The notes under the pieces: model-generated | Database searches by the model: none | What the model saw: only the letters and a program-made list of their open reading frames with translations | Told to the model about the DNA's origin: nothing | Assembly: GCA_964606285.1 (NCBI GenBank) | Contig: CAZSFP010000001.1 | Coordinates: forward strand, 5,376-69,375 | Reading direction: 5' to 3' | Length of the DNA: 64,000 nt | From: an uncultured Candidatus Saccharibacteria bacterium | Lineage (GTDB): Bacteria; Patescibacteriota; Minisyncoccia; Phycocordibacterales; UBA9973 | Shown: positions 1,255 through 64,000 of the stretch, in pieces | How the letters are laid out: every line of letters begins with the position of its first letter | Numbering within the stretch: position 1 is the stretch's first letter | Position numbers and translations under genes: made by a program

Positions 1255-1680
1255 AAGCTATGAAGGACGCGATAAGCTGCGATAAGCTGCGGGGATTGGC
1301 ACATACAAATTGATCCGCAGATTTCCGAATGGGGCAACCTGTAACACTGAAAAGTGTGACATCCGAAAGGAAGCTAACCCGAAGAACTGAAACATCTAAG
1401 TACTCGGGAAAATAAGGAATGGCCTGATTTCCAAAGTAGTGGCGAGCGAAATGGAAAAAGCCCAAACCAGACTGTCACGGTTGGTGTCAGTACTGGGGTT
1501 GTAGGACTACAATATAGATTGCTATTTATAGTGGAAGCATCTGGAAAGTTGCGCCATAGAGGGTGATAGACCCGTACACGAAATAAATCTGCTGTCTTAG
1601 TAGTATCCTGAGTACCGTTTGACCATTGAAATCAACGGGAATCTGCCGAGTCCTCTCGGAAGCTAAAATACCTAAAGAAT
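1255..1680 (+). rRNA. 23S rRNA 5'-domain fragment (~425 nt; truncated, likely pseudogene/remnant)
   Basis: Near-identity to universally conserved 23S 5' blocks: GAAGGACGcG..GCGATAAGC, GATTTCCGAATGGGGcAACC, GAACTGAAACATCTAAGTA, AGTAGtGGCGAGCGAAA, GGAAAGttGCGccATAGAGGGTGAtAGaCCCGTACAC. Ends at ~1680; uvrB follows, so the remaining ~2.4 kb of 23S is absent. Confidence 0.75.
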
Positions 1681-51001: not shown

Positions 51002-52387
51002 TTAAAAACTTTCAAAACTTTTATCGGCTTGCGTCATTTTGGAATAACCGTTGTCTTTGACCATGTCCACAAACGTTGCTTTGTCGGCATCAAAGTAAAG
51101 TTCAGCGATACCGGTCGGACCATTGCGGTGTTTTTCAACGATGATTTCGGCAATGTTTGTACGCTCTGATTCGTCTTTACCTTTGTCTTCACGGTGAATG
51201 AACATGACCACGTCCGCGTCCTGTTCGATCGCACCAGAGTCACGAAGGTCAGAGAGTCGTGGTCGGCCGCCACGTTGTTCGACGGCACGAGACAACTGGG
51301 AGAGGGCGAGAACCGGAACGTTGAGTTCACGGGCGAGCGCTTTGAGCGATCGAGAGATTTCTGCGATCTGGTGCACCATCGAATCATAGTTCTTTGTGGT
51401 CGTCATGAGCTGAAGATAGTCGACGACGATGAGTCCGAGTCCGTGTTCACTTTTCATTTTACGGGCGACGGATTTCATGCGGATGATCGAACTGCCTGCC
51501 TGGTCATCGATGAGGATCGGTGATTTTGCCAAACGGTCCATCGCTTCAGATAGTGCAGCAAAGTCGTTGTCTTTCAAATTTTTACCCGTACGGATGTTCC
51601 ACTGGTTGACGCGTGATTCGGCAGAGAGCATACGCTGTGCGAGCTGTGATGAACTCATTTCGAGTGAGAAGATACCGACAGGGATGTTGTGCTTTGTCGC
51701 AGCGAGACGTGCCATATCGAGGGCGAGCGTGGTTTTACCGACAGATGGTCGGGCCGCGAGAATGATGAGATCGGATTTGTGAAAACCGGCGAGCAAATTA
51801 TCAAGCGCCTGGAATCCGGTTGGTACACCCAAGAGTTCTTCTTTGGATTCGTGAAGACGGGAAAGCTCTTCCCATGTTTCGGTAAGGGTTTGTTTCAAAC
51901 TGACAAATTTCTGTGTTTTTGGTGAAGATACAAGTGTAAAAATTTTTTTCTCGGCTTCGTCGAGGACTTCATCGATGTCTTCGGATTCTTCACCGAAACC
52001 AAGTGTGGTGATCGCATCACCGGCTTCGATCAATCCACGAAGAATGTGTTTGCGGTGTACGATCTCGGCGTAGTGACGGACGTTTGTTGCAGCTGGGACC
52101 ATGTTTGCAAGTTCAGAGAGATAGCTCGCACCACCGATGCCGTCGAGTTCTTTGCGTTCACCGAGTTTTGCTGAAACAGAGAGGAGGTCGATTGGTTCAC
52201 TGCGGGAAAAGAGGTCGATCATTGCTCGATAAATAGTCCCATGTTTTGTCGCATAAAAGGCTTCTGGAGTGAGGATATCACTGATCTCATGGAATGCACC
52301 GGCACGAAGCATGACCGAACCGAGTACGGCTTGTTCGGCGTCGAGATTGTGTGGCGGTACGCGGAGATGTGACTGGTTTTTGCTCAT
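51002..52387 (-). CDS. dnaB: replicative DNA helicase DnaB
   Basis: N-terminal PPHNLDAEQAVLGSVML; RecA-like domain with Walker A ARPSVGKTTLAL. Confidence 0.93.
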   Translation of the reverse strand: MSKNQSHLRVPPHNLDAEQAVLGSVMLRAGAFHEISDILTPEAFYATKHGTIYRAMIDLFSRSEPIDLLSVSAKLGERKELDGIGGASYLSELANMVPAATNVRHYAEIVHRKHILRGLIEAGDAITTLGFGEESEDIDEVLDEAEKKIFTLVSSPKTQKFVSLKQTLTETWEELSRLHESKEELLGVPTGFQALDNLLAGFHKSDLIILAARPSVGKTTLALDMARLAATKHNIPVGIFSLEMSSSQLAQRMLSAESRVNQWNIRTGKNLKDNDFAALSEAMDRLAKSPILIDDQAGSSIIRMKSVARKMKSEHGLGLIVVDYLQLMTTTKNYDSMVHQIAEISRSLKALARELNVPVLALSQLSRAVEQRGGRPRLSDLRDSGAIEQDADVVMFIHREDKGKDESERTNIAEIIVEKHRNGPTGIAELYFDADKATFVDMVKDNGYSKMTQADKSFESF

Positions 52388-52493
52388 TAGTGTCTATCAT
52401 ACCACAGGAGAGAACAGTACCTCCACGGACAAAATTGCATAACTTTGTTGATATGCTGTGGAAAAGATTCTCTCTATCTGATACTATGGAAAC

Positions 52494-53435
52494 ATGCAAA
52501 AAAAGATTTTAATTTCAGGAATTCAGCCAAGCGGTAAGGTTCATATTGGAAACTATTTCGGTATGATGAAGCAGCTTGTTGATATGCAAGACGATCATGA
52601 ATCTTTTGCATTTATCCCAAACTATCATTCATTGACCAGTATCCACGCGGCAAAAGAAGTCAAAGACAACACCAATGATCTCGTCCTTGATTATCTCGCT
52701 ATCGGTATTGATCCAGAAAAAGTTTCTATTTTCAAACAATCAGACGTTCCAGAAGTAACCGAACTGACATGGATTTTCAATTGTCTCGTCACTATGCCAT
52801 GGCTCGCACGTGCACATGCGTTCAAAGATAAAACTGACAAAGGCATGGAAGCAAATGTTGGACTATTTGATTATCCAGTTCTCATGGCGGCAGATATACT
52901 TTTGTATGATAGTGAGGTGGTGCCTGTCGGTAAAGATCAAAAGCAGCATGTTGAAATGGCACGCGAGGTTGCACAAAAATTCAACAATGCATTTGGTGAG
53001 ACGTTCAAGATACCACAAGAATTTATCAAAGAAGATGTTGCTGTTGTTCCTGGAACTGACGGGCAGAAAATGTCCAAATCATACGGCAACACCATTCCGC
53101 TTTTTGGAACTGATGAAGAGATCAAGAAGGCTGTCATGTCTATCGTGACAGATTCATCCGGCGATGTACCGACAAATGTCTATGCGATTCATAAACTTTT
53201 TAAATCTGAATCCGAACTCACTGCGCTGTATGAAGAAAAGAAAGGGAAGTACAAAGACCTCAAGGAAGCACTCCTTGCCGACATTATCGCATTTGTGACA
53301 CCGATGCGCGAACGCCGAGCTGTATTTGCATCACAACCAGAACTTGTCGCAGATATTCTCCGTCGTGGCGCTGAAAAAGCCCGCGCCCGTGCCCAAGCAA
53401 AAATGAAAATCGTGAGAGAACGAGTAGGATTATAA
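52494..53435 (+). CDS. trpS: tryptophan--tRNA ligase
   Basis: ISGIQPSGKVHIGNYFG (HIGH-type) and KMSKSYGN. Confidence 0.93.
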   Translation: MQKKILISGIQPSGKVHIGNYFGMMKQLVDMQDDHESFAFIPNYHSLTSIHAAKEVKDNTNDLVLDYLAIGIDPEKVSIFKQSDVPEVTELTWIFNCLVTMPWLARAHAFKDKTDKGMEANVGLFDYPVLMAADILLYDSEVVPVGKDQKQHVEMAREVAQKFNNAFGETFKIPQEFIKEDVAVVPGTDGQKMSKSYGNTIPLFGTDEEIKKAVMSIVTDSSGDVPTNVYAIHKLFKSESELTALYEEKKGKYKDLKEALLADIIAFVTPMRERRAVFASQPELVADILRRGAEKARARAQAKMKIVRERVGL

Positions 53436-53442
53436 AAAACAT

Positions 53443-55257
53443 ATGGATACGAAAAAAGAAACAATATTCCATCATTGGAAAAATTTCCTTAAAAACATTA
53501 GGGAAATTTTTACTATTTCATGGAAAGAAGACAAATGGAAATTGATTGGATATTTTATCGGATCAACATGTGTTGCACTTGTTCCTGTATTTCAGTCATA
53601 TGCCAACAAAGTTCTAGTCAACGGAGTTATTGAGGCTGTCACACTACAAAATCTCGGACATCTTTGGTTTGTTGTTGTTATATTGGCGATCGCATATACA
53701 ACCCCAGGTGTCTTTTATAGTTTTAATCATTTCTTTGAGCGGAGTATTTTTTTTACTTTAAATAAAGTTTTTGATCTGGCTGTGGAGTCCAAGCGCAGTG
53801 AATTGGATATTCTCCAATACGAAGATTCAAAGTTCAACAATTTTGTGAATCGAGTAAATGAAAAAGGTATTTGGGTCATAGGAAATATGACAACAACTGT
53901 ATTTTATGATTATCAAAGTATTATCACAATACTTATGTCTGCTGCTGTTGTGGGATTTTATTCTCCTGTTATTTTATTTCTTTTGATTCTTTCATCTATT
54001 CCACAACTCATCCTCAATACCAAGTTTGCAAATATGCAGTGGTATTTGTGGGGAGATGATGTGAATGCGGAGGAACGGAGAAAATATTGGGCAGTAAAAG
54101 GGACACTTTCTTCAATTTCTGATATTACTGAAGTGAAGTTATTTAACTTAAAGAGAAATTTCATCATGCGATTGAGTAATTTTATTGAAAGAATAAAAGA
54201 AATTCAAAACAAGAATAATCGAAAAAAACTTGTATGGTCTCTTGTAACAAATATCCTTGGACAAAGTGCTGTTATTTTTGGAATTTTATATATGATTCGG
54301 GATGCGATTGAAGGAACATTTTCTATAGGTTCGATCGTTCTCGTCGCAGGAGTCATGGCAAGTTTCCAAAATTCTTTGGCAGAATTATTTACCAGTCTGG
54401 GGAGAAATCACGAGGATAGAAAATACCTCCATGATCTTCTTGTGTTTTTAAAAATACAACCGGCTATTGTTGATGGAAAACAAGTGATTGATTTTGATAA
54501 AGCGCCTGAAATTTCATTCAATGCTATTACTTTTTCATATCCAAACAGTGAAAAAAAGATATATGACAATTTTTCTCTTACGATAAAAAGAGGAGAAAAA
54601 ATTGCAATTATAGGCCTCAATGGTGCAGGAAAAACAACGTTGGTAAAATTACTCTGCCGATTTTATGATCCGACAAAAGGTTCTGTCACTATCGGTGGTA
54701 TCAATCTCAAAGATATCAAAAAGCGAACCTGGTATGACCATATTGGAGTTTTGTTCCAAGATTTTGCAAAATATAAATTTACGACTATTGGAGAATTGAT
54801 CAGCCTCGGAGACATTCATTCATTGCCAAATGACGGAGCAGTCCAAAAAGCAGGGAAACAAGCCGATGCTGAGAGTTTCATCAAAGCTTTTCCAAAAGGA
54901 TATGAACAACAACTAGGAAAAGAATTTACTGATGGTGTAGATCCGTCTGGAGGACAATGGCAGAAGCTCGCCATCGCTCGACTTTTCTATAGAAATCCAA
55001 AAATCTGGATTTTGGATGAGCCGACAGCGGCGGTTGATGCTGATGCTGAAGCAAAAATATTTTCACAGCTTGAAAAACTTCCGAGAAATACAACAGTCAT
55101 TTTGATTTCGCACAGATTCTCAACTGTTCGAACCGCAGATCGTATCGTTGTTATCGACGCTGGCAAGGTACGAGAGCAAGGAACTCATGAAGAGCTTATG
55201 GCAATGGGTGGCGAATATGCGAGATTGTTTAGTTTGCAGGCTGAGGGATATAAATAA
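53443..55257 (+). CDS. ABC exporter, fused permease/ATP-binding protein (MsbA/lipid-exporter-like)
   Basis: 6-TM domain, then an NBD with GLNGAGKTTLVKLL, LSGGQWQKLAIAR and ILDEPTAAVD. Confidence 0.88.
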   Translation: MDTKKETIFHHWKNFLKNIREIFTISWKEDKWKLIGYFIGSTCVALVPVFQSYANKVLVNGVIEAVTLQNLGHLWFVVVILAIAYTTPGVFYSFNHFFERSIFFTLNKVFDLAVESKRSELDILQYEDSKFNNFVNRVNEKGIWVIGNMTTTVFYDYQSIITILMSAAVVGFYSPVILFLLILSSIPQLILNTKFANMQWYLWGDDVNAEERRKYWAVKGTLSSISDITEVKLFNLKRNFIMRLSNFIERIKEIQNKNNRKKLVWSLVTNILGQSAVIFGILYMIRDAIEGTFSIGSIVLVAGVMASFQNSLAELFTSLGRNHEDRKYLHDLLVFLKIQPAIVDGKQVIDFDKAPEISFNAITFSYPNSEKKIYDNFSLTIKRGEKIAIIGLNGAGKTTLVKLLCRFYDPTKGSVTIGGINLKDIKKRTWYDHIGVLFQDFAKYKFTTIGELISLGDIHSLPNDGAVQKAGKQADAESFIKAFPKGYEQQLGKEFTDGVDPSGGQWQKLAIARLFYRNPKIWILDEPTAAVDADAEAKIFSQLEKLPRNTTVILISHRFSTVRTADRIVVIDAGKVREQGTHEELMAMGGEYARLFSLQAEGYK

Positions 55258-55380
55258 TAAATTCAAATAATAAATTCCTTGAAAAAACACACCACGGGCG
55301 TGTTTTTTTTGTTCGTTTTTTACTTTTTGACATATCTTCTGTTTAGGAATACTATGATGGAAAATCTTTAATAAAATCAC

Positions 55381-56448
55381 ATGTATAAGGAAAAGAAGTT
55401 GAAATTCTTGGGATATGATTTGATGCGCAAGAAGTACATCAGAATCAATATGAGAAAGAACGGATTGGAAATACATCAATTGGAATTCGCGGAGAATGTA
55501 CTTTGTGTTATGGAACAAGTATCCAATGTTTCTCCTGATGTCATTATTACCCCGACTCGTTCGGATACGGTTGTTGATTTGAAAGAAATATTTATACATT
55601 TTCTTTCGCTAGCTGGTCTGACAATACAAGAGATTACCGCTTTTTTGTTGTCAAAAAACGACCGGGCGTTGAGTCGTCCTTCTGTCTGGTGTTTTATGAA
55701 ATCATTTAGTGAAAAACACGAGAAAGATACATACATCAAAGAATTGGTTTCGGATATCATGACGGCTGGTGTTTCATTGCTTTTGAAAGATTTCCCGAAA
55801 AAACAAATTTTTCCTCGGCAGTATGGATCTATTCCGTTTGATGAAAAAACAGGAATGTATTCCCGTGACAAAATCATCCTTGATGGAATTTCTCCACAAA
55901 AAATAAAAGAGGCAGAACGTGTTCTCTGTATTATATCCAGGATTACAAAACTGGAAATGAAGGACATCATCAGTGCAAGTCAGGAAAGAAAATTCGTTGA
56001 TGCTCGTAGAATGTATATTTATTTTTTGAGGAAAAAATTCAAATTCTCTTTATCTGTGTGTGGTCGGTTTTTTGTTTCAAAAAAAGTTGGCCAACACCAG
56101 AAAGATCACGCAACTATTTTTCATGCATTAAAAAGCCATAAGGCGCTTATAGATAGCAACGACAAAGTTTATACTGCGGTATTTCAGGAGGTTATGAGTG
56201 TCTTTCAGAAAAATGCATGTTTCTTGCAGATTTATGAGCTCGAAGGATATTCTTTCAATGGACAAGAAGTTCAAAAGATTATTTTGGTAAACAAGGTGAG
56301 TCACGAATCTGTTGTTTCTGGTGATAATTGGTTTAGTTATGAAGAGCTTTTATTGCTTTTGCACCAAAACAAAATTACTGATCCTGTCATTACAAGCACC
56401 ATGATGCGGAATCCTGATTACTTCACCAAAAAACGACTAGCTGCATAG
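55381..56448 (+). CDS. protein composed of two tandem DnaA domain-IV (DnaA C-terminal HTH) repeats, no AAA+ module
   Basis: Repeat 1 ..ITAFLLSKNDRALSRPSVWCFM.. and repeat 2 ..RKFVDARRMYIYFLRK.FSLSVCGRFF.....DHATIFHALKSHKAL.. both follow the DnaA-box-binding pattern (LLSKRRS..ARPRQ.AMYL....SL..IG..FGGRDHTTV.HA..KI). Confidence 0.6.
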   Translation: MYKEKKLKFLGYDLMRKKYIRINMRKNGLEIHQLEFAENVLCVMEQVSNVSPDVIITPTRSDTVVDLKEIFIHFLSLAGLTIQEITAFLLSKNDRALSRPSVWCFMKSFSEKHEKDTYIKELVSDIMTAGVSLLLKDFPKKQIFPRQYGSIPFDEKTGMYSRDKIILDGISPQKIKEAERVLCIISRITKLEMKDIISASQERKFVDARRMYIYFLRKKFKFSLSVCGRFFVSKKVGQHQKDHATIFHALKSHKALIDSNDKVYTAVFQEVMSVFQKNACFLQIYELEGYSFNGQEVQKIILVNKVSHESVVSGDNWFSYEELLLLLHQNKITDPVITSTMMRNPDYFTKKRLAA

Positions 56449-56513
56449 TCGTTTTTTTTATTGATAAATTAAATATTTAGTGTAATATATAGAAAAACTT
56501 AAATCTCCAAATC

Positions 56514-56762
56514 ATGTTTCTTTCAAATATATTTGAATACTCGTCAAATCATCCTCATTCTCGAGAAGATGTTCTAAAAGATATTATTGCTTGGATGAAA
56601 TTAATAGAATCAATGACTGAATACAAAGGAAGAGAAATAATAAGTCAATCTCATTCAATATCTCTTGATTCATCAGGATTTATGAGTTACTGTGGTTCAG
56701 CAATTCTTCAATTAGGGAAAACAGAAGAAGAAAAGAAGAAGGAAGATGACAGTAAGAAATAA
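56514..56762 (+). CDS. hypothetical small protein
   Basis: ORF only. Confidence 0.35.
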   Translation: MFLSNIFEYSSNHPHSREDVLKDIIAWMKLIESMTEYKGREIISQSHSISLDSSGFMSYCGSAILQLGKTEEEKKKEDDSKK

Positions 56763-56877
56763 AATAAGATTATTCAATAACAAAAAGCGTCCCATGGGCG
56801 CTTTTTTTGTTACTAAAAATCTATTTGACTTAATATCATTTTGATGATATTTTGAAGAAAAAATTAAAAACAGGAAT

Positions 56878-57384
56878 ATGATAGCAGAAAAATCAACAGT
56901 TAAAAAAGTCTCTAAAATTCCAGATGAACTTCTTCCAATGGATCATGAAAAATACTTCAAAGGTATATGTAGAGGCTGTCGACATCTTGGGTATGGTGTT
57001 GGCGGACCGTATTGTGGAAAATTTGATGGATTCCATTGGGATTCTCGTGGTGAAAAAACCAGGCAATTGCTCGATGGAAACTGTGGAGGAATACTTGAAA
57101 AGATTCTTGAACTCAAAGCTCTCATTATCGGAAAATCAGTGATATGTGCATTGAAAAAAGTTAAAAAGTTCGGAAAAATCAAAGATATTGTTTTTGAAAA
57201 AGAAAAAAATTTGTTGTACATAACAATGTCTTTAAAAAACAAGAAAAAAGATTATGTGTTAACTCGTTCAATTGAACACATGAAAATAACGAACATGCCA
57301 CATTCCAATTATTTTCAATTTGTTTGGGGACAGGAGGGAAATGATTATTGGGAGATGGAAACCGTAATGATCATAAAGAAGTAA
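56878..57384 (+). CDS. hypothetical Cys-rich protein (CxxC...C...C N-terminal cluster)
   Basis: ORF; KGICRGCRHLGYGVGGPYCGK..NCGG. Confidence 0.45.
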   Translation: MIAEKSTVKKVSKIPDELLPMDHEKYFKGICRGCRHLGYGVGGPYCGKFDGFHWDSRGEKTRQLLDGNCGGILEKILELKALIIGKSVICALKKVKKFGKIKDIVFEKEKNLLYITMSLKNKKKDYVLTRSIEHMKITNMPHSNYFQFVWGQEGNDYWEMETVMIIKK

Positions 57385-57444
57385 TTTCATAAAAGCGTCG
57401 AATAGGCGCTTTTTTTGTTGTCTGGAATCTGGTATATTTAGCAA

Positions 57445-59226
57445 ATGCTATCCTCAAACGATATTCGGAACCGATTCCTCCAATTTTTCAAAAACCGCGG
57501 ACACGCGATTATCCCGTCTGCATCACTCGTACCTGAAAACGATCCATCCGTTCTTTTCAATACTGCAGGTATGCAACCACTCGTGCCGTATCTCATGGGA
57601 CAAAAGCATCCATTGGGGAATCGTCTCGCAAGTGCACAAAAATGCGTTCGAACAGGTGATATAGAAGAAGTCGGCAATCACAAGAACCTCACATTTTTTG
57701 AAATGCTTGGCAATTGGTCCCTTGGTGACCCGACTTCACCTGATGGTGTTGGTCGGGCAGGCTATTTCAAAGAAGATGCGATCAAGTGGAGCTTTGAATT
57801 TCTCACATCCAAAGAAGAAGGACTTGGTTTTGATCCATCACGTCTGTATATCACAGTGTTCGAAGGTGATGCAGATGCGCCGCGAGATCTGGAAGCTGTA
57901 GAAATCTGGAAAAAGTATATTTCAGAAAACAGAATTTATTTCTTGCCGAAAAAAAATAACTGGTGGAGTCCAGGAGACAATGGTCCATGCGGTCCGGATA
58001 CCGAAATGTTTTATGATGTCACACCTGATGGACTCGGTGATATGACGCATGATGAATATGTTGCAGCGGACGATGACGGTCGGGTTGTGGAGATTTGGAA
58101 TGATGTATTCATGGAATATGAGAAAAAAGACGGAAACGTTATCGGCAAGCTTGCACAAAAAAATGTTGATACTGGTAGTGGACTTGAACGTGTCACAATG
58201 ATCGCGCAAGGAAAATCAAATGTGTATGAAGCCGACATGTTTGCACCAGTAATGGATATCATCAAGGAAAATAGTTCTCAGTTTGAACAGCGATCAGCAC
58301 GAATTGTTGCAGACCATATTCGAACAGGAATATTTTTGATCGCGGATGGTATTTTTCCATCAAACAAAGATCAGGGATACGTACTTCGACGCCTTATTCG
58401 TCGTGCGGTAATGCAAGGCAAACAATTGCAACTCACCGCAGAAACAATGCAATCCATCGCAGTGTGGTACATAGATTTTTATACAGATGCATATCCAAAT
58501 CTTTTTGAACAAAAAGACCATATTATTCAAATTCTTGGTGGTGAACAAGAAAAATTCCAAAAAACTCTCGACCAAGGCCTCAAGGAATTTGAAAAAGGAG
58601 CAGATCCATTTATTCTTGCGACGAGTTATGGATTTCCGATTGAGCTCACAGAAGAATTGGCAAAAGAAAAGGGAATTGTAATCGATCGAGCTTCATTTGA
58701 TGTTAAAATGAAAGAACATCAAGATCTCTCTCGCTCTGGTTCAGAGCAAAAATTCAAAGGCGGTCTCGCAAATCACAACGAACAGACGGTGAAGTTGCAC
58801 ACTGCACACCACCTCCTGCTTGCTGCACTTCAACAAGTCGTCAGTCCTGATATCAAGCAGCGGGGAAGTAATATTACTGAGGAGCGTCTTCGTATGGATT
58901 TCTCATTTGATCGCAAAGTCACTCCTGAAGAATTACAAAAAGTCGAAGATTTGGTCAATGAAAAAATTCAGGCGAAACATGTAGTCATTCGTCGTGAGAT
59001 GTCACTTACTGAAGCAGAAAAGATTGGTGCTCAAATGGAATTCGGTGCGAAGTACCCTGAAACGGTCAGTGTATATTTCATCGAAGACGAAACCGGCAAC
59101 CCATTTTCAAAAGAATTCTGCGGAGGACCACACGTTTCAAACACTGGTGAGCTTGGACACTTCAAAATTCAAAAAGAAGAAGCGTCGTCGGCTGGTGTTC
59201 GCCGCATCAAGGCGATTTTGGAATAG
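57445..59226 (+). CDS. alaS: alanine--tRNA ligase (short form: catalytic + editing domains, no C-Ala domain)
   Basis: N-terminal FLQFFKNRGHAIIPSASLVPENDPSVLFNTAGM; editing-site HTAHHLL; 593 aa. Confidence 0.9.
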   Translation: MLSSNDIRNRFLQFFKNRGHAIIPSASLVPENDPSVLFNTAGMQPLVPYLMGQKHPLGNRLASAQKCVRTGDIEEVGNHKNLTFFEMLGNWSLGDPTSPDGVGRAGYFKEDAIKWSFEFLTSKEEGLGFDPSRLYITVFEGDADAPRDLEAVEIWKKYISENRIYFLPKKNNWWSPGDNGPCGPDTEMFYDVTPDGLGDMTHDEYVAADDDGRVVEIWNDVFMEYEKKDGNVIGKLAQKNVDTGSGLERVTMIAQGKSNVYEADMFAPVMDIIKENSSQFEQRSARIVADHIRTGIFLIADGIFPSNKDQGYVLRRLIRRAVMQGKQLQLTAETMQSIAVWYIDFYTDAYPNLFEQKDHIIQILGGEQEKFQKTLDQGLKEFEKGADPFILATSYGFPIELTEELAKEKGIVIDRASFDVKMKEHQDLSRSGSEQKFKGGLANHNEQTVKLHTAHHLLLAALQQVVSPDIKQRGSNITEERLRMDFSFDRKVTPEELQKVEDLVNEKIQAKHVVIRREMSLTEAEKIGAQMEFGAKYPETVSVYFIEDETGNPFSKEFCGGPHVSNTGELGHFKIQKEEASSAGVRRIKAILE

Positions 59227-59240
59227 TTTCAATGGGTAGT

Positions 59241-59269
59241 TTGACATTTTCTAAAATAAAAAGTATAAA
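59241..59269 (+). promoter_or_regulatory. near-consensus sigma70 promoter (TTGACA-N17-TATAAA) driving the ncRNA/RT unit
   Basis: ttgacattttctaaaataaaaagtataaa; predicted transcription start ~59276. Confidence 0.6.
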
Positions 59270-59275
59270 TATGAT

Positions 59276-59480
59276 ACTCCGGTTTCTATTGATGAAACAT
59301 TTCATTGAATAGTTCAATTTTCAGCAGTCAGTATCTGGCTGTCACGATGAACGTTATGTCTCGGGGGATTAAATTCCCACTGACTCAAGGCACGCACTGC
59401 GTGCGTAGAATGAAGTGAGCTCAGGGTTGCGCAAGCAACTCTGAGCGACCGGTTATTTGTACTTTTCTAACTAAATAAAA
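59276..59480 (+). ncRNA. structured non-coding RNA candidate upstream of the RT (retron msr/msd-like or DRT template RNA)
   Basis: No ORF. Nested stems agtcagt/actgact (59326-59388), gcacgc-act-gcgtgc (59391-59405), gctcag-g-gttgcGCAAgcaac-t-ctgagc (59419-59447). Flanked by diverged direct repeats ccggtttctattg (59279) / ccggttatttgta (59449) and acattttctaaaataaaaa / acttttctaactaaataaaaa. Confidence 0.5.
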
Positions 59481-59491
59481 ACTAAAACACA

Positions 59492-60865
59492 TTGAAAAAC
59501 AACCAAATGATGAAAGAAGCTATGCAAATTATTGCAAACGCTTCGCAGGTAAGCATCGATCATTTGGAGGAAGTTTTTCTGAATCCAACATATCGTGTGT
59601 TTACTATCCCAAAACGCTCTGGTGGCAAGCGACTTATTCATGCCCCCATTGGAATAACAAAAGATGTTCAAAATGCTTTGTATTACAATTTTCTGAAGAA
59701 AATTTCTACTGGACCAAATATTTCCTCACATTGTTTTGGTATACCAAAACGTTCATGGAAAGATAATGTGAATCAACACCTATCTCCGGTTCCTTCGTAT
59801 GTTGTCGATATTGATCTGAAAGATGCATTTCATTGTGTAGATACAACAAGTCTTGAAAAAGCACTTGCCAATGTATTTTTTCATGAAGTGTGTTTATATA
59901 AAGATCGATACGTCACATTTATACGAAGTGCGAAGAATTTGGAACGCATTCAGAAAAAGGAGAATAAAAATGAAGATGATGTACTTGCTTCAGCCTTTCA
60001 GTATTCAGCCGATTTCATCTCAAAAGATGCTCGGTTTCAAGAATGGCTCGATGATCAAAGATTTAGTCTCGATGTCTCTGAGACGAAACCTAGAAAGAGA
60101 CCTCTTTTGTTTCCAAATAAATTAGTGCGAGATTTTAGAAAACAGGTGCGTACAGGTGATGCATCGACACGGGTACATGAACTTTGTGAATGTATAGCAT
60201 TAATTTTGGCAAAAGTTTTAACGTATGAAGGTCGTTTAGTCCAAGGATGTCCAACATCGCCAATTCTTATGGCGCTTGTGGTATCACATACTCAGTTACT
60301 CCATAAGTTTAGAGATTTTGAACCAGATAATATTTCAATATATGTTGATGGGATAACTTTTGGGGCATATGGATCAAATAAAACGATTGTTTCAGAAAAA
60401 TTGCGTGCCATCATTGGAAAAATTGAGGCAGACTCTATTTGGAAATTTAATATGGAAAAAATCCACGTGTATGACACAAATAAAGAGCAACCACTTGTTA
60501 CGGGTTTACGTTTAATTCGAAACAGAAAAACTCGTGAAGAACTAAAGATTATGATTCTTAATAAAGTTAAGTATGCGCGCAAACATTTGAAAGCATGGAT
60601 ACCATGGTATTATTTCCGGACGACCATTCCAAAGAAAACGCAAAAGAAAATCCGTGCAATATTACATCACGCATGTCTTGATGTAAGAGGGGGATCACAA
60701 AATCCTCATATTCAGCAAGTTGCAAAAGGGTATATTGGCTATGTGTTTTATGTGTATGAACAATATAATAGTATTCCATCACAACTAAAAAAAGCATTAC
60801 ATTCATATGAAGAAGTTGTGGACGGAAATGTATTTGTTTCTATGTATAACAAAGAACCTGTTTAA
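59492..60865 (+). CDS. reverse transcriptase (retron-type / defence-associated RT; VTG motif; variant YVDG box)
   Basis: RT motifs in order: FTIPKRSGGKRLIHAP (1-2), QNALYY (NAxxH-like), VVDIDLKDAFHCV (A), LVQGCPTSPILMALV (B'), IYVDGITF (C variant), PLVTGLRL (retron VTG). No maturase/En domain; ~120-aa C-terminal extension. Confidence 0.85.
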   Translation: MKNNQMMKEAMQIIANASQVSIDHLEEVFLNPTYRVFTIPKRSGGKRLIHAPIGITKDVQNALYYNFLKKISTGPNISSHCFGIPKRSWKDNVNQHLSPVPSYVVDIDLKDAFHCVDTTSLEKALANVFFHEVCLYKDRYVTFIRSAKNLERIQKKENKNEDDVLASAFQYSADFISKDARFQEWLDDQRFSLDVSETKPRKRPLLFPNKLVRDFRKQVRTGDASTRVHELCECIALILAKVLTYEGRLVQGCPTSPILMALVVSHTQLLHKFRDFEPDNISIYVDGITFGAYGSNKTIVSEKLRAIIGKIEADSIWKFNMEKIHVYDTNKEQPLVTGLRLIRNRKTREELKIMILNKVKYARKHLKAWIPWYYFRTTIPKKTQKKIRAILHHACLDVRGGSQNPHIQQVAKGYIGYVFYVYEQYNSIPSQLKKALHSYEEVVDGNVFVSMYNKEPV

Positions 60866-60886
60866 AAACAGGTTCTTTTATTTTTC
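60854..60886 (+). terminator. rho-independent terminator overlapping the RT stop codon
   Basis: gaacctgtttaaaaacaggttc perfect hairpin plus T-run. Confidence 0.7.
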
Positions 60887-61006
60887 ATCCTCGAGTAGAA
60901 AACCACAGATTTCCCTTTGTTTCCCCTAGGAGTATGCTATACTGTGAGGGTCTTATCAGATAATTACATTATGTTTTGCACGTATGTGTAAGACGACACC
61001 ATATAT

Positions 61007-61267
61007 ATGGCAGTAAAAAAAGTGAATTCCGCATTTATGAAACCAATGACAATCAGCGCCGAATTGGCGGCAGTTGTCGGAAAAGGTCCGATGCCTCGAT
61101 CAGAAGTTGTCAAAGCTCTCTGGGTTTATATTAAAAAGAACAACCTCCAAGATCCAAAGAACAAGCGAAACATCGTTGCCGATGAATCTCTCAAGAAAGT
61201 ATTCGGTGGCAAGGCAGTTGTTTCTATGTTTGAAATGACAAAACTCGTTTCAAAACACCTTTCATAA
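61007..61267 (+). CDS. SWIB/MDM2 domain protein
   Basis: SAFMKPMTISAELAAVVG..PRSEVVKALWVYIKKNNLQDPKNKRNI..D..L..VFGGK.VSMFEMTKLVSKHL: canonical bacterial SWIB pattern. Confidence 0.85.
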   Translation: MAVKKVNSAFMKPMTISAELAAVVGKGPMPRSEVVKALWVYIKKNNLQDPKNKRNIVADESLKKVFGGKAVVSMFEMTKLVSKHLS

Positions 61268-61284
61268 TAAACTGTGAAAATAAA

Positions 61285-61313
61285 AAAATCCCCGATGGCG
61301 CGGGGATTTTTTG
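61285..61313 (+). terminator. rho-independent terminator
   Basis: aaaaatccccgatggcgcggggatttttt. Confidence 0.7.
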
Positions 61314-61328
61314 TTGTATGAAATTGTA

Positions 61329-61760
61329 TTACCACCAGATCCAGATAGGGAATAAAACACCGATCCCGAAGTTTTTTCCAAGATTGATACCTCCACCGAT
61401 TGCAAGGCATCCGAATCCTCCAAAGCAACCTCCGGCAGTAAGATAAAATGGCCCAAAACTAACTTCTGGTCCTATATATAACGCAACGTGATGATACCAA
61501 CTTGTTGTTTTTTCTGCTGCTTTTTGAGTCTGTTGAGCGATGAGTAAAGTTGTTGATGTTATAAAAAGTATAATGGTTGTAAGAACCCGCTGTGTCCATG
61601 TAGGGGTTTCTGAAAAATTATCACCAAGATCTATATCTGCATCTGCAATACCGTCTCCGACATTGCTTGCAATATTACCTGCTGTTTCACCATCTGTATC
61701 TCCTTGTCCTAATACAGGACCCAGGTCTATAACAAGACCAAGTGCTAATCCAAATTCCAT
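61329..61760 (-). CDS. hypothetical Gly-rich membrane protein
   Basis: ORF; G/D-rich N-terminus, TM segments, C-terminal GGxxG repeats. Confidence 0.45.
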   Translation of the reverse strand: MEFGLALGLVIDLGPVLGQGDTDGETAGNIASNVGDGIADADIDLGDNFSETPTWTQRVLTTIILFITSTTLLIAQQTQKAAEKTTSWYHHVALYIGPEVSFGPFYLTAGGCFGGFGCLAIGGGINLGKNFGIGVLFPIWIWW

Positions 61761-61898
61761 TTTGTATGTGTTTTAAGGTTTGAATTTATAATACCATATA
61801 TTTAAAAATTAGCAAATATTATTCTTCTTATCTATTTATGTCTAAGTTTTCCACCACAAATATACAAGTAAAGATACATTCTGCGCTATACTTGAGGC

Positions 61899-63029
61899 AT
61901 GGGATTTTCTCTTGGAGGTAAAAAAGAAACAGTGCTCGTCCTCGATATCGGATCGGGTTCAGTTGGTGGTGCGGTAGTACAGATGGATAAAAACCGCAAA
62001 GCAAAAACAAAAATACTTTTTTCAACGCGGGCAGACATGCTCTATCAACAGCATGGAGACAGGGAACATGCACATGATTCGATGATTCGTGCACTTGAAC
62101 GCGTCGTCTCAGCACTTGGTGAAGTATCTGTTGGTCGTGTCGACAAAGTCGCATGTTTTCTCGCGGCACCATGGCATGTCAGTCAGTCTCGAACAAGCAC
62201 GATGGAACGCACAGTTTCATTTACTTTTTCCAAACGTTTCGCCGGTGCGATCATTGATCGTGAGACGCTGGCATTCCAAGACGCGATGCATGATGCATAT
62301 CGACAACACGGTGATATTGTACGCGTCTTTGAAAAACGATTGACCGATGTCACATTGGACGGCACTTCCTCTCTCTCGCCATTTGGTAGCAAGGCACGTT
62401 CAGTTGTCCTCTCTCTGTTTATTGCAGGGGCTCCGGAGCACCTGTTACATCGGATCGAATATACGATCAATCGGAGTTTTCGCGCACCGGTCATATTCAA
62501 TACATTTGTCAGTGCAGCATATATGGCAGTCCGATCTGCGTTGCCCACATATGAAGATTTTTTCATTGTAAATGTTGGGGGTAGTATGACAGATATTGGT
62601 ACTAGTAAAAAAAGTATTTTGTATACAACAGCAACCATCCCACTCGGTATGCATGCGATTGTTAGATCTGTCGCTGAAAAATCAGGCGTGACGTTGCATG
62701 AAGCAGAATCACTCATCAGTTTGACCCACAAAAAAGTTCTGACAAAAAAATATACTGAACATGTACTCCGGGTGATGAAAGATGCGGGTGGTGCTTGGTC
62801 CCGTGGTTTCAAGAAGTATTTTTCTCATTCAGGCAGTCCAAATATCGTCATTCTCTTTTCTGATAACAAAAGCGTACCTGCGCTTGTGCCGGTATTGGAA
62901 CAAAGTGTCACCCTCGGAACAACCATCATACCGTTTACTGCCGAATATCTCGTACGCCTTGTTGAAACACCACTTGATCATACTGATATTTTTCTCTCGG
63001 TCGAAGCAGCAATTCTTCCTTTTATATAA
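61899..63029 (+). CDS. actin-like ATPase (FtsA/PilM family)
   Basis: Phosphate-1 VLVLDIGSGSVGGAVV and phosphate-2 VNVGGSMTDIG motifs of the ASKHA fold. Confidence 0.6.
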   Translation: MGFSLGGKKETVLVLDIGSGSVGGAVVQMDKNRKAKTKILFSTRADMLYQQHGDREHAHDSMIRALERVVSALGEVSVGRVDKVACFLAAPWHVSQSRTSTMERTVSFTFSKRFAGAIIDRETLAFQDAMHDAYRQHGDIVRVFEKRLTDVTLDGTSSLSPFGSKARSVVLSLFIAGAPEHLLHRIEYTINRSFRAPVIFNTFVSAAYMAVRSALPTYEDFFIVNVGGSMTDIGTSKKSILYTTATIPLGMHAIVRSVAEKSGVTLHEAESLISLTHKKVLTKKYTEHVLRVMKDAGGAWSRGFKKYFSHSGSPNIVILFSDNKSVPALVPVLEQSVTLGTTIIPFTAEYLVRLVETPLDHTDIFLSVEAAILPFI

Positions 63030-63030
63030 T

Positions 63031-64000
63031 TATGCGCCGGATTATAGATATACAAAAAAAACACAATGATCGGGATCTGCTCAATCAGGCGCCGTTTCCG
63101 CTGCATATGCCTGAACCGATCGACACAAGACGACACATTGCTCGTGGTGTGTGGATTATCGCATCCTGCGTGTTTCTCGTGTGTGTCTACGCCATTTGGT
63201 CATACTTTGCGCATGCAACCGTGACGCTCACGCCGCATGTTCGAGAAGCCATGATTGCCGAAACTATTTTTGCCAATAAAAATAAAACGACAGATTTGTC
63301 ATTTGATACGATCACGTTGTCGAGTAGTGTGGATATGGCTGTGCCATCAACGACACAAAGTGAAAAGAACTCCTATGCGACAGGAACGATTGCACTTTTC
63401 AATACTGGTTCATCGAGTGTCCGCATTCCCAAGGGAACTATCATCAAAAACGGCAGTCATGAATATAAGACAACCACAGCGGTTACCATTGCGAAACAAT
63501 CAAAAAACGTTCCTGGATCAGCGACTGTTGAGATCAAGGCGACAAAATCTGGTCAAGAACACAATGTCGCCACTGCCGACTTTACTGTTCCATCGCTTGG
63601 TGTTCGTGTCTACGGACGAACAAAAGAACCGATTGATGGTGGATATGCCGGTACTTTGTATAGTGCAGATGAAGTGGTAATGGCCGATGTTGTCGTTAAA
63701 ATGCAGGAAGATTTAAAAACAAAATTATTTGCTCAGGCATTGGCACAGATTCCCGATACGGTTATTTTATACCCAGATCTCACAGTGTTTTCATTTGACG
63801 CACCGCTCACAAATGCAGCAACGGCAGATATCCACGTAACGATTACTGGAAGTCTTCATGGATTTCTTCTTTACAAAAAAGAACTGACATCCGTGCTCAC
63901 GCACATCATTGATCCGAATTATGATGACAGTGTTCCAGTTTCCATACCAGATCTCGCCCTTCTTCGTCCAAAGCCATCACTACCGTCTGATATACCTCCG
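63031..64000 (+). CDS. hypothetical single-pass membrane protein, 3'-partial (runs off the window)
   Basis: ATG at 63031, TM segment GVWIIASCVFLVCVYAIW; the frame stays open to position 64000. Not in the ORF track because there is no stop in the window. Confidence 0.5.

What the first reader, a model, noticed from the sequence alone, without database searches (positions are those of the whole stretch)
60338..60358. RT catalytic box is YVDG instead of Y(A/V)DD
Seen: codons tat-gtt-gat-ggg (IYVDGITF) at the motif-C position. The second aspartate of the canonical YxDD metal-binding pair is glycine. In characterised RTs both aspartates contribute to catalysis, so this enzyme may be catalytically altered, use a different residue geometry, or be a non-polymerising RT-fold protein.
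Basis: seen in the sequence. Interest (0 to 1): 0.55.

Follow-up and report, generated by a model that had tools for sequence, protein, structure and literature searches.

The report
Retron-like RT lacking second catalytic aspartate
A reverse transcriptase gene in a tiny-genome Patescibacteria bacterium, paired with its own structured RNA, naturally lacks one of the three supposedly universal catalytic aspartates, as do dozens of relatives, yet it is under strong selection and carries a coupled change nearby, so it is most likely a working enzyme with a rewired active site.

Summary
Codons tat-gtt-gat-ggg (60341..60352) encode Y284-V-D-G287 at motif C of a 457-aa retron-like reverse transcriptase (59492..60865). 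It is not a sequencing error: three independent assemblies carry GGG.

It is also not peculiar to this gene. In its 16-member Nomurabacteria family the fourth residue is D, N, S or G. In a second Patescibacteria clade it is G in 25, N in 17 and D in 3 of 45 sequences.

All other catalytic residues are fixed in the 51 Asp-less relatives: K41, R47, D108, F113, Q251, Y284, D286 and K323. dN/dS is 0.15-0.24.

Position 106, two residues before the motif A aspartate, co-varies with 287. It is K/R in 71 of 101 proteins that keep the aspartate and never acidic there. It is D/E/Q in 41 of 51 that lost it, and the window has D106.

Just upstream lies a conserved 174-nt structured RNA (59279..59452) that is absent from Rfam. 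It has its own promoter, a covarying closing stem and a pseudoknot. No effector gene is conserved nearby.

Best reading: an active retron-type RT-ncRNA cassette with a remodelled active site. This is a new variant of a known kind, and its activity is untested.

The parts
59241..59269 (+). Promoter-like signal for the cassette: TTGACA (59241-46), 17 nt, TATAAA (59264-69). It places the RNA 5' end at about 59277-59279.
   Evidence: Read from the sequence. The TTGACA box aligns across 13 homologous loci. The consensus scanner did not call it because the -10 hexamer ends in A.
59279..59452 (+). Conserved 174-nt structured ncRNA. Elements: closing stem P1 (59279-84 / 59447-52); P2 (59286-90 / 59308-12); long-range pseudoknot helix (59298-306 / 59409-17); hairpin P3 (59324-42); variable hairpins; and a 12-bp 3' hairpin of variable sequence (59419-46) abutting P1.
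   Evidence: It is conserved upstream of every RT homologue. MFE is -73 kcal/mol, z = -5.6. In the tested helices 92.8% of cells are paired against 79.5 +/- 1.4 in shuffles (0/500). Fifteen pairs carry compensatory changes, and the covariation score is 0.40 against at most 0.13 for slid controls. P1 occurs in six compensatory versions. No Rfam match. Single copy in the window.
59492..60865 (+). Retron-like reverse transcriptase, 457 aa. The start is TTG at 59492; other gene callers used a downstream ATG, giving the 451-aa P0001.
   Evidence: Pfam RVT_1 at 1.6e-10. PADLOC hits are all retron RT types at about 1e-25. All PDB sequence hits and the top ten Foldseek hits are retron RTs. dN/dS is 0.16 against L018.
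59612..59632 (+). Fingers motif K41-RSGGK-R47 (triphosphate-binding Lys and Arg).
   Evidence: K41 and R47 are invariant in the family. They are K and R in 50 of the 50 aligned Asp-less relatives.
59765..59779 (+). Retron 'region X': N92-V-N-Q-H96, a variant of NAXXH.
   Evidence: H96 is invariant. The motif definition is from PMC7736814.
59807..59830 (+). Motif A, D106-I-D108-L-K-D111-A-F113. D108 is the catalytic Asp and F113 the steric gate. D106 is the residue that co-varies with position 287.
   Evidence: D108 is present in 51/51 Asp-less relatives and F113 in 50/51. Residue 106 is K in all 5 family members that keep Asp287 and D/E in all 12 that lost it. In the wider set it is K/R in 71/101 and never acidic when 287 is D, and Q/D/E in 41/51 when it is not. 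Changes at the two positions fall on the same tree branches, P about 0.0008.
59843..60187 (+). Helical insertion of about 115 aa (residues 118-232) between motif A and motif B. Its length varies across the clade.
   Evidence: The alignment shows gaps and variable length. The model gives helices H118-187 and a disordered stretch at 191-200. Compact relatives of about 300-320 aa lack it.
60236..60277 (+). Motif B, LVQ251-G-CPTSPILMAL.
   Evidence: Q251 and G252 are invariant. Q is present in 50/51 and G in 51/51 Asp-less relatives.
60341..60352 (+). Motif C, Y284-V285-D286-G287: the finding. Gly replaces the second Asp of YxDD.
60440..60466 (+). Motif D, W-K-F-N320-M-E-K323 (general-acid Lys).
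   Evidence: N320 and K323 are invariant in the family. K is present in 50 of 50 aligned Asp-less relatives.
60497..60505 (+). Retron 'region Y': V336-T337-G338.
   Evidence: G338 is invariant in all 152 sequences. The definition is from PMC7736814.
60851..60888 (+). Intrinsic terminator (12-bp stem plus a T-run) overlapping the RT stop codon. It closes the promoter-ncRNA-RT unit.
   Evidence: The weak Rfam sRNA hits here are matches to terminators.

Best explanation
The locus 59241..60888 is a self-contained retron-type cassette (promoter, structured ncRNA, RT, terminator) from a Patescibacteria (Nomurabacteria) genome.

The RT is most likely still a metal-dependent DNA polymerase. It would use D108 (motif A) and D286 (first Asp of motif C) as the core metal ligands.

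The second motif C carboxylate has become dispensable in this lineage. Position 287 is now constrained only to turn-forming residues (D, N, S, G). The active-site electrostatics were re-balanced by changing residue 106, two residues before D108 on the same strand face. It went from the K/R seen in YxDD relatives to D/E in this family, or Q in the sister clade. This change either relocates the third carboxylate or removes an unpaired positive charge.

By analogy with retrons, the RT binds the conserved 5' part of its ncRNA and copies part of the 3' portion into a short cDNA. The 3' portion is the variable 12-bp hairpin next to the closing stem.

Shown here: the motif, its clade-wide variability, the constraint on the other catalytic residues, the 106-287 coupling, and the ncRNA with its structure. 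Inferred: polymerase activity, the metal geometry, which RNA segment is the template, how synthesis is primed, and the biological role (probably phage defence, as for retrons and DRTs).
For: The protein is retron-like by sequence, profile and fold. Regions X and Y are present.

The fourth motif C residue is G/N/D/S in the family, while Y284 and D286 are invariant. Across 152 relatives the counts are D 101, N 38, G 7, S 5 and E 1, the root state is D, and there are at least 7 switches. A second clade has G 25, N 17 and D 3.

The 51 Asp-less sequences share only about 31% mean identity, yet D108, Y284 and D286 are present in 51/51, K323, K41 and R47 in 50/50, and Q251 and F113 in 50/51. dN/dS is 0.15-0.24, including the Gly-bearing pair.

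The codons used (GAT, AAC, AGT, GGG) map to D/N/S/G, the classic beta-turn formers, and the model puts the residue at a hairpin tip.

Residue 106 is coupled to 287. No protein with Asp at 287 has an acidic 106 (0/101) and 71/101 have K/R. Only 2/51 Asp-less proteins keep K/R. Five of nine switches fall on the same branch, P about 0.0008.

There is precedent. Mutating the second motif C Asp lowers activity or changes the metal requirement but does not inactivate viral polymerases, and Birnaviridae and Mononegavirales naturally have Asn there (PMC4634563).

The ncRNA sits upstream of every homologue and has strong covariation. The second clade has its own ncRNA.
Against: There are no biochemical data. 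In HIV-1 RT and telomerase both aspartates are needed (my knowledge; also PMC1851649, abstract listed).

Gly and Ser cannot bind a metal at all, unlike the Asn of the viral precedents.

Group II intron RTs often have an acidic residue at the equivalent of position 106 together with YADD (my recollection). An acidic 106 is therefore not in itself proof that the carboxylate was relocated.

No conserved unpaired G follows the 5' strand of P1, where retrons keep their branching G. P1 is short (5-7 bp).

The tree is a rough NJ tree built on cluster representatives.
Confidence: 0.55

Rival explanations
1. The protein is an active polymerase but does not work like a retron. The ncRNA would be a scaffold or template for a different product, for example protein-primed, repetitive or untemplated DNA as in DRT9, DRT10 or AbiK. 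The altered motif C would reflect a changed substrate or metal preference.
For: No branching G is evident next to P1. No effector gene is conserved. Two-component RT+ncRNA defence systems exist, namely DRT2 and DRT9. A pseudoknotted, highly conserved RNA core is unusual for msr.
Against: Sequence and fold place the RT with retron RTs, far from DRT2, DRT9 or UG15 (Foldseek ranks 43-50 against ranks 1-10). No PADLOC DRT model is among the 25 best hits shown, all of which are retron RT types. Retron regions X and Y are present. A DRT2-style stop-free repeat is excluded.
Confidence: 0.2
2. The protein is a non-polymerising RT fold. It would have become an RNA-binding subunit of an RNP with its ncRNA, regulatory or structural, as Prp8 and maturases use the RT fold. 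The loss of Asp287 would mark catalytic death.
For: A canonical catalytic residue is missing and is replaced by residues that cannot bind metal (G, S). The gene sits alone among housekeeping genes and is syntenic within subclades. The RNA is strongly conserved.
Against: Residues needed only for chemistry or dNTP selection stay fixed over about 31% identity. These include D108, D286, the motif D Lys K323, the steric gate F113, Q251, K41 and R47. A dead enzyme would be expected to lose them. Position 287 reverts to D in some lineages. The compensatory behaviour of residue 106 indicates selection on active-site electrostatics.
Confidence: 0.15
3. The feature is an artefact or decay: a sequencing or assembly error at the ggg codon, or a pseudogene.
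For: The sequences come from metagenome assemblies. Nothing else supports this reading.
Against: The GGG codon is identical in three independent assemblies. The ORF is intact and full-length in all homologues. dN/dS is 0.16. YVDG occurs in 25 of 45 members of another clade.
Confidence: 0.01

Closest known systems
Retrons: RT plus msr-msd ncRNA, e.g. Ec86/Eco1, Ec78/Eco7, Ec67/Eco2 (classification of Mestre et al. 2020, PMC7736814)
   Same: The RT fold and sequence are closest to retron RTs. A region X N-x-x-x-H and a region Y VTG are present. A structured ncRNA lies immediately upstream in the same transcription unit. Its 5' and 3' ends pair like a1/a2, it has short conserved stem-loops in the 5' part, and it has a hairpin of variable sequence next to the 3' strand. 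Stand-alone (msr-msd)-RT cassettes without an effector are known.
   Different: Motif C is Y-V-D-G/N/S instead of YADD. The RT does not reach the cut-off of any typed retron RT model (77 bits against 235) and scores diffusely across all types. It has a 115-aa insertion between motifs A and B. P1 is only 5-7 bp and no branching G is evident. The RNA has a pseudoknot. No effector is conserved. The clade is restricted to Patescibacteria, and the gene sits among housekeeping genes rather than in defence islands.
Viral RNA-dependent RNA polymerases with a natural G-D-N or A-D-N motif C (Mononegavirales, Birnaviridae)
   Same: These are right-hand polymerases that work with Asn in place of the second motif C Asp. 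The first Asp is essential and the second is modulatory (PMC4634563).
   Different: They are RNA polymerases of viruses and are not homologous beyond the palm. Gly and Ser at this position, as seen here, are not documented there.
DRT2 (UG2) and DRT9 (UG28): two-component RT + ncRNA anti-phage systems
   Same: A lone RT plus an upstream structured ncRNA with no separate effector protein. The RNA ends are brought together by a stem.
   Different: They belong to a different RT lineage, UG/Abi (Foldseek ranks 48-49). No stop-free concatemer frame exists here. Their RT catalytic domain is needed for defence: mutating it abolishes immunity.
G2L4 and other domesticated prokaryotic RTs with altered YADD boxes (YIDD, YVDD)
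   Same: A chromosomal, free-standing RT with a non-canonical motif C that is a signature of the clade.
   Different: In those RTs only position 2 varies and the DD pair is kept. They are group II intron-like, not retron-like, and have no dedicated ncRNA.

Membership tests
Retron RT / retron system | An RT domain with motifs 1-7 that is closest to retron RTs | tested here: met
   Pfam RVT_1. All 25 PADLOC hits shown are retron RT types. All 13 PDB sequence hits and Foldseek ranks 1-10 are retron RTs.
Retron RT / retron system | [quoted passage not shown] | tested here: met
   N92-V-N-Q-H96, with H96 invariant in the family. A is replaced by V or other residues. H is present in 49/51 and 97/101 of the wider set. 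Definition.
Retron RT / retron system | [quoted passage not shown] | tested here: met
   V336-T337-G338. G338 is present in 152/152 sequences.
Retron RT / retron system | A catalytic YADD/YxDD box with both aspartates | tested here: not met
   The window has YVDG. The family has D/N/S/G at position 4.
Retron RT / retron system | A score above the curated cut-off of a typed retron RT model | tested here: not met
   NCBIfam retron_St85_RT gives 77 bits against a cut-off of 235, and Ec67 gives 62 against 450. PADLOC scores of 85-88 bits are spread over many types, each as partial matches.
Retron RT / retron system | A contiguous ncRNA whose 5' and 3' ends are complementary (a1/a2) | tested here: met
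   P1 at 59279-84 / 59447-52. Compensatory versions include CCGGU/ACCGG, CUGGUU/AACCAG, CCGAUU/AAUCGG and CCUGGG/CCCAGG. Native duplexes average -7.7 kcal/mol against -3.5 +/- 2.4 for shuffles. It is shorter than typical a1/a2 stems.
Retron RT / retron system | An msd hairpin with a variable 10-50 bp stem, plus 1-3 short msr stem-loops | tested here: inconclusive
   A 10-13 bp 3' hairpin of variable sequence and covarying structure lies next to P1, and conserved short hairpins lie 5' of it. Which segment is reverse-transcribed is unknown.
Retron RT / retron system | A conserved branching G just 3' of a1 that primes through its 2'-OH | tested here: inconclusive
   The nucleotides after the 5' strand of P1 are U or C in all loci. 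Invariant Gs that are unpaired in the tested fold lie elsewhere, at 59294, 59307 and 59408. A branch cannot be tested in silico.
Retron RT / retron system | Production of msDNA | not testable with these tools
   This needs expression or biochemistry.
Retron RT / retron system | An associated effector gene or a fused effector domain | tested here: not met
   The neighbours are housekeeping genes and differ between subclades. Effector-less cassettes are known, however.
DRT2-type RT + ncRNA (rolling-circle 'Neo' gene synthesis) | A UG2-lineage RT, and an ncRNA template giving a stop-free repeat | tested here: not met
   DRT2 is Foldseek rank 49, E 6.5e-4. Every frame of the RNA on both strands has at least 1 stop in all 13 loci, and the lengths are not consistently multiples of 3.
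Diversity-generating retroelement (the commonest RT type in CPR) | A template/variable repeat pair near the RT, and a DGR-type RT | tested here: not met
   No direct repeat of 35 nt or more in 52000..64000. DGR RTs appear only at Foldseek rank 35 and beyond. Motif B is QGxPTSP, as in retrons.
Group II intron RT/maturase | An intron RNA domain and a maturase-type RT | tested here: not met
   TIGR04416 gives 30.7 bits against a cut-off of 300. There is no group II intron Rfam hit.

The most novel reading that the evidence does not exclude
A natural RT lineage has rebuilt the polymerase catalytic centre. The third carboxylate has moved from motif C (position 287) to the motif A strand (D/E106), or has been dispensed with entirely (Q106 with G/N287). 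This would give a two-Asp or alternative-triad reverse transcriptase that still makes DNA from a dedicated pseudoknotted ncRNA. The cassette would be an effector-less RT-RNA system specific to Patescibacteria, largely vertically inherited, and its role need not be classical retron defence.
Probability: 0.3. Interest if true: 0.8.

Novelty: new variant of a known kind. Interest (0 to 1): 0.62.

Why it matters
The YxDD pair is used as the universal signature of a working reverse transcriptase. Surveys use it to decide whether an RT is 'probably active' (e.g. PMC4244168).

Here whole clades of retron-like RTs in Patescibacteria lack the second aspartate. They remain under strong purifying selection and carry a coupled change at a second active-site position.

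If they polymerise, four things follow:
- The minimal catalytic requirement of RTs would be redefined.
- A natural mutant cycle (K/R106+D287 against D/E/Q106+N/G/S287) would be available for dissecting metal binding.
- Annotation pipelines would be shown to risk mislabelling such enzymes as dead.
- Two new RT-associated structured RNA families from CPR bacteria would be added, as compact RT+RNA pairs that could interest retron-based genome engineering.

If they do not polymerise, they would be a bacterial example of an RT fold turned into a pure RNP protein.

Tried and rejected
- **Sequencing error or pseudogene.** Rejected: the same GGG codon is in three assemblies, the ORFs are intact, and dN/dS is 0.16.
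- **True motif C lies elsewhere.** Rejected by the profile alignment to Ec67 YADD and by the hairpin position in the model.
- **D111 as the compensating acid.** Rejected: D111 is D or N regardless of the state at 287.
- **K297 as the motif D lysine.** My first assignment was wrong. The motif D Lys is K323, in F-N-x-x-K. I also first mis-indexed D108 as D106. That mistake exposed the 106 signal, which I then tested properly.
- **DRT2-like stop-free rolling-circle gene.** Rejected.
- **DGR.** Rejected.
- **Group II intron.** Rejected.
- **Known Rfam family for either ncRNA.** None found.
- **Phage or viral origin.** No protein relative and no RNA-core match in IMG/VR.
- **A conserved effector neighbour.** None found.
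- **Literature.** Searches for YxDN/YxDG RTs, for Nomurabacteria RTs, and in a 2026 retron metagenome survey found no description of this clade.
- **Measuring the 106-287 distance.** Model coordinates are not exposed to the scripting tool, so this could not be done.
- **A covariance model of the ncRNA.** Not built. The hand-specified structure counts and the pattern searches were enough for the question.
Full report
**1. The observation.**
The codons tat gtt gat ggg lie at 60341..60352. They are in frame with a 457-codon ORF at 59492..60865 on the + strand, and they encode Y284-V285-D286-G287 within SIYVDGITF.

The protein matches Pfam RVT_1. The tetrapeptide is the real motif C. A profile of the family aligns 'svYvDnitls' onto 'srYaDDitiS' of retron Ec67. 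In an AlphaFold model built on the family alignment (pLDDT 85, pTM 0.80) it sits at the tip of the beta-hairpin E279-284/E287-292.

The GGG codon is identical in two further assemblies from other samples whose protein is 83% identical (L018 and L019). A 78%-identical relative has YIDG.

**2. What the protein is.**
All 25 PADLOC hits shown are retron RT types. They score about 85-88 bits each, as partial matches split by an insertion. NCBIfam retron models are hit far below their cut-offs, for example 77 bits against 235.

All 13 solved structures found by sequence are retron RTs. Foldseek ranks 1-10 are retron RTs: Eco7/Ec78, Ec86, Ec83 and Ec67, with target-normalised TM-scores of about 0.64-0.69 for the compact ones (lower, about 0.35, for the longer Ec67 fusion). 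Group II, DGR, DRT2 and DRT9 RTs rank well behind.

The two retron signature regions defined by Mestre et al. (PMC7736814) are present. Region X is N92-V-N-Q-H96 with H96 invariant. Region Y is V336-T337-G338 with G338 invariant.

A helical insertion of about 115 aa separates motifs A and B.

The protein is therefore retron-like, but it belongs to none of the typed retron RT families.

**3. How motif C behaves in relatives.**
Only 16 full-length relatives exist among 5.8 billion protein clusters. The named ones are Candidatus Nomurabacteria.

In their alignment Y284 and D286 are invariant. Position 287 is G in 3 sequences, N in 6, S in 4 and D in 3.

A profile search of 1.84 billion cluster representatives found 72 relatives at E <= 1e-30. 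Across the family plus the best 150 hits the residue is D in 101, N in 38, G in 7, S in 5 and E in 1.

On an NJ tree the root state is D. There are at least 15 state changes and at least 7 switches between Asp and non-Asp. One large clade has no Asp at all among its roughly 38 representatives. A denser sample of that clade gives G 25, N 17 and D 3 of 45, and one member is annotated 'RNA-directed DNA polymerase [Patescibacteria group bacterium]'.

YVDG is thus a recurrent, common state in Patescibacteria retron-like RTs.

**4. Is the enzyme dead?**
The evidence points the other way. The 51 Asp-less sequences share only about 31% mean pairwise identity, yet the other active-site residues are fixed:

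| Residue | Role | Present in Asp-less sequences |
|---|---|---|
| D108 | motif A Asp | 51/51 |
| D286 | first motif C Asp | 51/51 |
| Y284 | motif C | 51/51 |
| K323 | motif D Lys | 50/50 aligned |
| K41, R47 | fingers | 50/50 aligned |
| Q251 | motif B | 50/51 |
| F113 | steric gate | 50/51 |

dN/dS is 0.15-0.24 in six comparisons, including 0.16 for the Gly-bearing pair.

The codons found at position 287 are GAT, AAC, AGT and GGG. They encode D, N, S and G, which are the classic beta-turn formers. This fits a constraint that has shifted from chemistry to hairpin geometry; that reading is my inference.

The literature supplies a precedent. In viral RNA-dependent polymerases the first motif C Asp is essential. 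Mutating the second lowers activity or changes the metal requirement. Birnaviridae and Mononegavirales naturally carry Asn there (PMC4634563).

Surveys of bacterial RTs report variation only at positions 1 and 2 of YADD and treat the DD pair as the mark of activity (PMC4244168). I found no description of YxDN or YxDG prokaryotic RTs.

**5. A coupled second site.**
I scanned for columns enriched in acidic residues in the Asp-less group. This singled out position 106, two residues before D108 and so on the same face of the motif A strand.

- In the core family, all 5 members that keep Asp287 have K106. All 12 that lost it have D or E. The window has D106 at 59807-59809.
- In the wider set with 287 = D (n = 101), residue 106 is K in 39, R in 32, N in 8, T in 7, Q in 4, H in 4, and never acidic.
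- In the wider set with 287 not D (n = 51), residue 106 is Q in 25, D in 10, E in 6 and K in 2.
- The pattern repeats in separate lineages. P0051 and P0066 are K+D while their sister P0062 is E+N. P0009 is K+D while its sisters P0010 and P0011 are E+N.
- On a tree built without these two columns, 5 of the 9 switches at 287 fall on the same branch as a switch between basic and non-basic at 106. P is about 0.0008 for random placement on 302 branches.

In HIV-1 RT the motif A strand (beta6) pairs antiparallel with the strand that follows the DD turn (beta10). That is established knowledge recalled from memory. By that register, residue 106 would lie roughly 8-9 A from residue 287, within reach of a Lys or Arg side chain.

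Two readings fit. The third carboxylate may have relocated to the motif A strand. Alternatively, an unpaired positive charge had to be removed once Asp287 was lost. Either reading implies continuing selection on the electrostatics of a metal-binding active site.

One caveat: as far as I recall, group II intron RTs can have an acidic residue at this position together with YADD.

**6. The RNA partner and the cassette.**
A non-coding gap of about 250-380 bp lies upstream of the RT in each locus where upstream sequence was recovered. It holds a conserved element in all 13 non-redundant loci, although the proteins are only 35-83% identical.

In the window the element spans 59279..59452. It follows a conserved TTGACA-N17-TATAAA signal at 59241-69. 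A 12-bp terminator at 60851-78 overlaps the RT stop codon.

The RNA folds far better than shuffles (z = -5.6). The tested helices have 92.8% of cells paired against 79.5 +/- 1.4 in shuffles (0/500). Fifteen pairs carry compensatory changes, and the covariation score is 0.40 against at most 0.13 for slid controls. This includes a 9-bp long-range helix that forms a pseudoknot with P2.

A closing stem joins the two ends of the RNA and occurs in six compensatory versions. A 10-13 bp hairpin of variable sequence abuts its 3' strand.

This matches the a1/a2 plus msr/msd logic of retron ncRNAs. However, the stem is short and no conserved G follows its 5' strand.

The RNA matches no Rfam family. It is single-copy in the window and absent from viral contigs.

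The second Patescibacteria clade has its own conserved, GC-rich, stem-closed upstream RNA. In one locus that RNA had been translated as a spurious RT N-terminus.

**7. Context.**
The RT is always a lone gene among housekeeping genes such as aminoacyl-tRNA synthetases, TopA, RelA, Pth, RecA, SecA and PheST. The neighbours are shared within subclades and differ between them. No effector is conserved, and no relatives were found in viral contigs.

The family is rare. Only 2 hits came from one scan of 185,579 species genomes, and that scan was limited by its search patterns. The distribution is therefore patchy, as for defence systems, despite local vertical inheritance.

Alternatives were tested and rejected:
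- a DRT2-like stop-free repeat;
- a DGR template/variable repeat pair;
- a group II intron.

**8. Verdict.**
The finding is real.

The locus is a retron-type RT-ncRNA cassette of a Patescibacteria-specific lineage. It has a remodelled motif C that is coupled to a change at motif A position -2. It has no effector gene, and its ncRNA is not in Rfam and was not found in the literature searched.

I rate it a new variant of a known kind.

Confidence that it is an active polymerase using its ncRNA is about 0.55. The main rivals are a non-retron mode of synthesis (0.2) and a non-polymerising RNP (0.15). The remainder is unassigned. Activity, priming and biological role remain untested.

Noticed in passing
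window 59279..59452 (+), with the promoter at 59241-69: A 174-nt conserved, pseudoknotted ncRNA upstream of the RT. It is not in Rfam and is present upstream of the RT in all 13 non-redundant homologous loci.
   Followed up: yes
L020:4000-4150; L021:3835-3990; L022:3825-3995: A second, different conserved ncRNA family lies upstream of the RTs of the YVDG/YVDN sister clade. It is 52-58% GC in a 25-35% GC genome and has a closing stem UGGGACC/GGUCCCA. In L020 the gene call translated it as a spurious 55-aa RT N-terminus, which explains why all homologues cover only about 82% of P0094.
   Followed up: partly
window 1257..1667 (+): An isolated match to bacterial LSU rRNA covering only model positions 46-470 of 2925 (268 bits). 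No other LSU piece was found anywhere in the 64-kb window. It could be a fragmented or insertion-bearing rRNA gene, an orphan fragment or an assembly join. It remains unexplained.
   Followed up: partly
window 59843..60187 (RT residues 118-232): A helical, charged insertion of about 115 aa between RT motifs A and B, at the position of the IFD/3a insertions of other RTs. Its length ranges from none in 300-aa relatives to more than 200 aa in others. Its function is unknown, and it could be the system's output or interaction module.
   Followed up: no
window 59489..59512: The RT start codon is TTG here (cattgaaaaac), where the 83%-identical homologue L018 has ATG (catgaaaaac). Other gene callers started the window protein at a downstream ATG, giving the 451-aa P0001.
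   Followed up: partly
RT residues about 328 and 397 (window about 60473-75 and about 60680-82): Two further alignment columns are enriched for D/E in the Asp-less lineages (0.73 against 0.38, and 0.67 against 0.34). The signal is less clean than for position 106 and was not tested on the tree.
   Followed up: no
window 60785..60963, both strands: Several weak Rfam sRNA hits (ncr1015, STnc370, rimP leader) all fall on the same strong hairpin and T-run at 60851-78. They are matches to a terminator, which probably works in both directions between the RT and the downstream gene.
   Followed up: partly
window 61007..61267 (+) and 55381..56448 (+): The flanking ORFs are an 86-aa protein that looks like a SWIB/MDM2-type domain and a 355-aa protein with what look like two DnaA-C-like HTH segments. 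Both were judged by eye only. Neither neighbour recurs in the other RT loci whose gene tables were retrieved, so they are probably unrelated to the RT.
   Followed up: no
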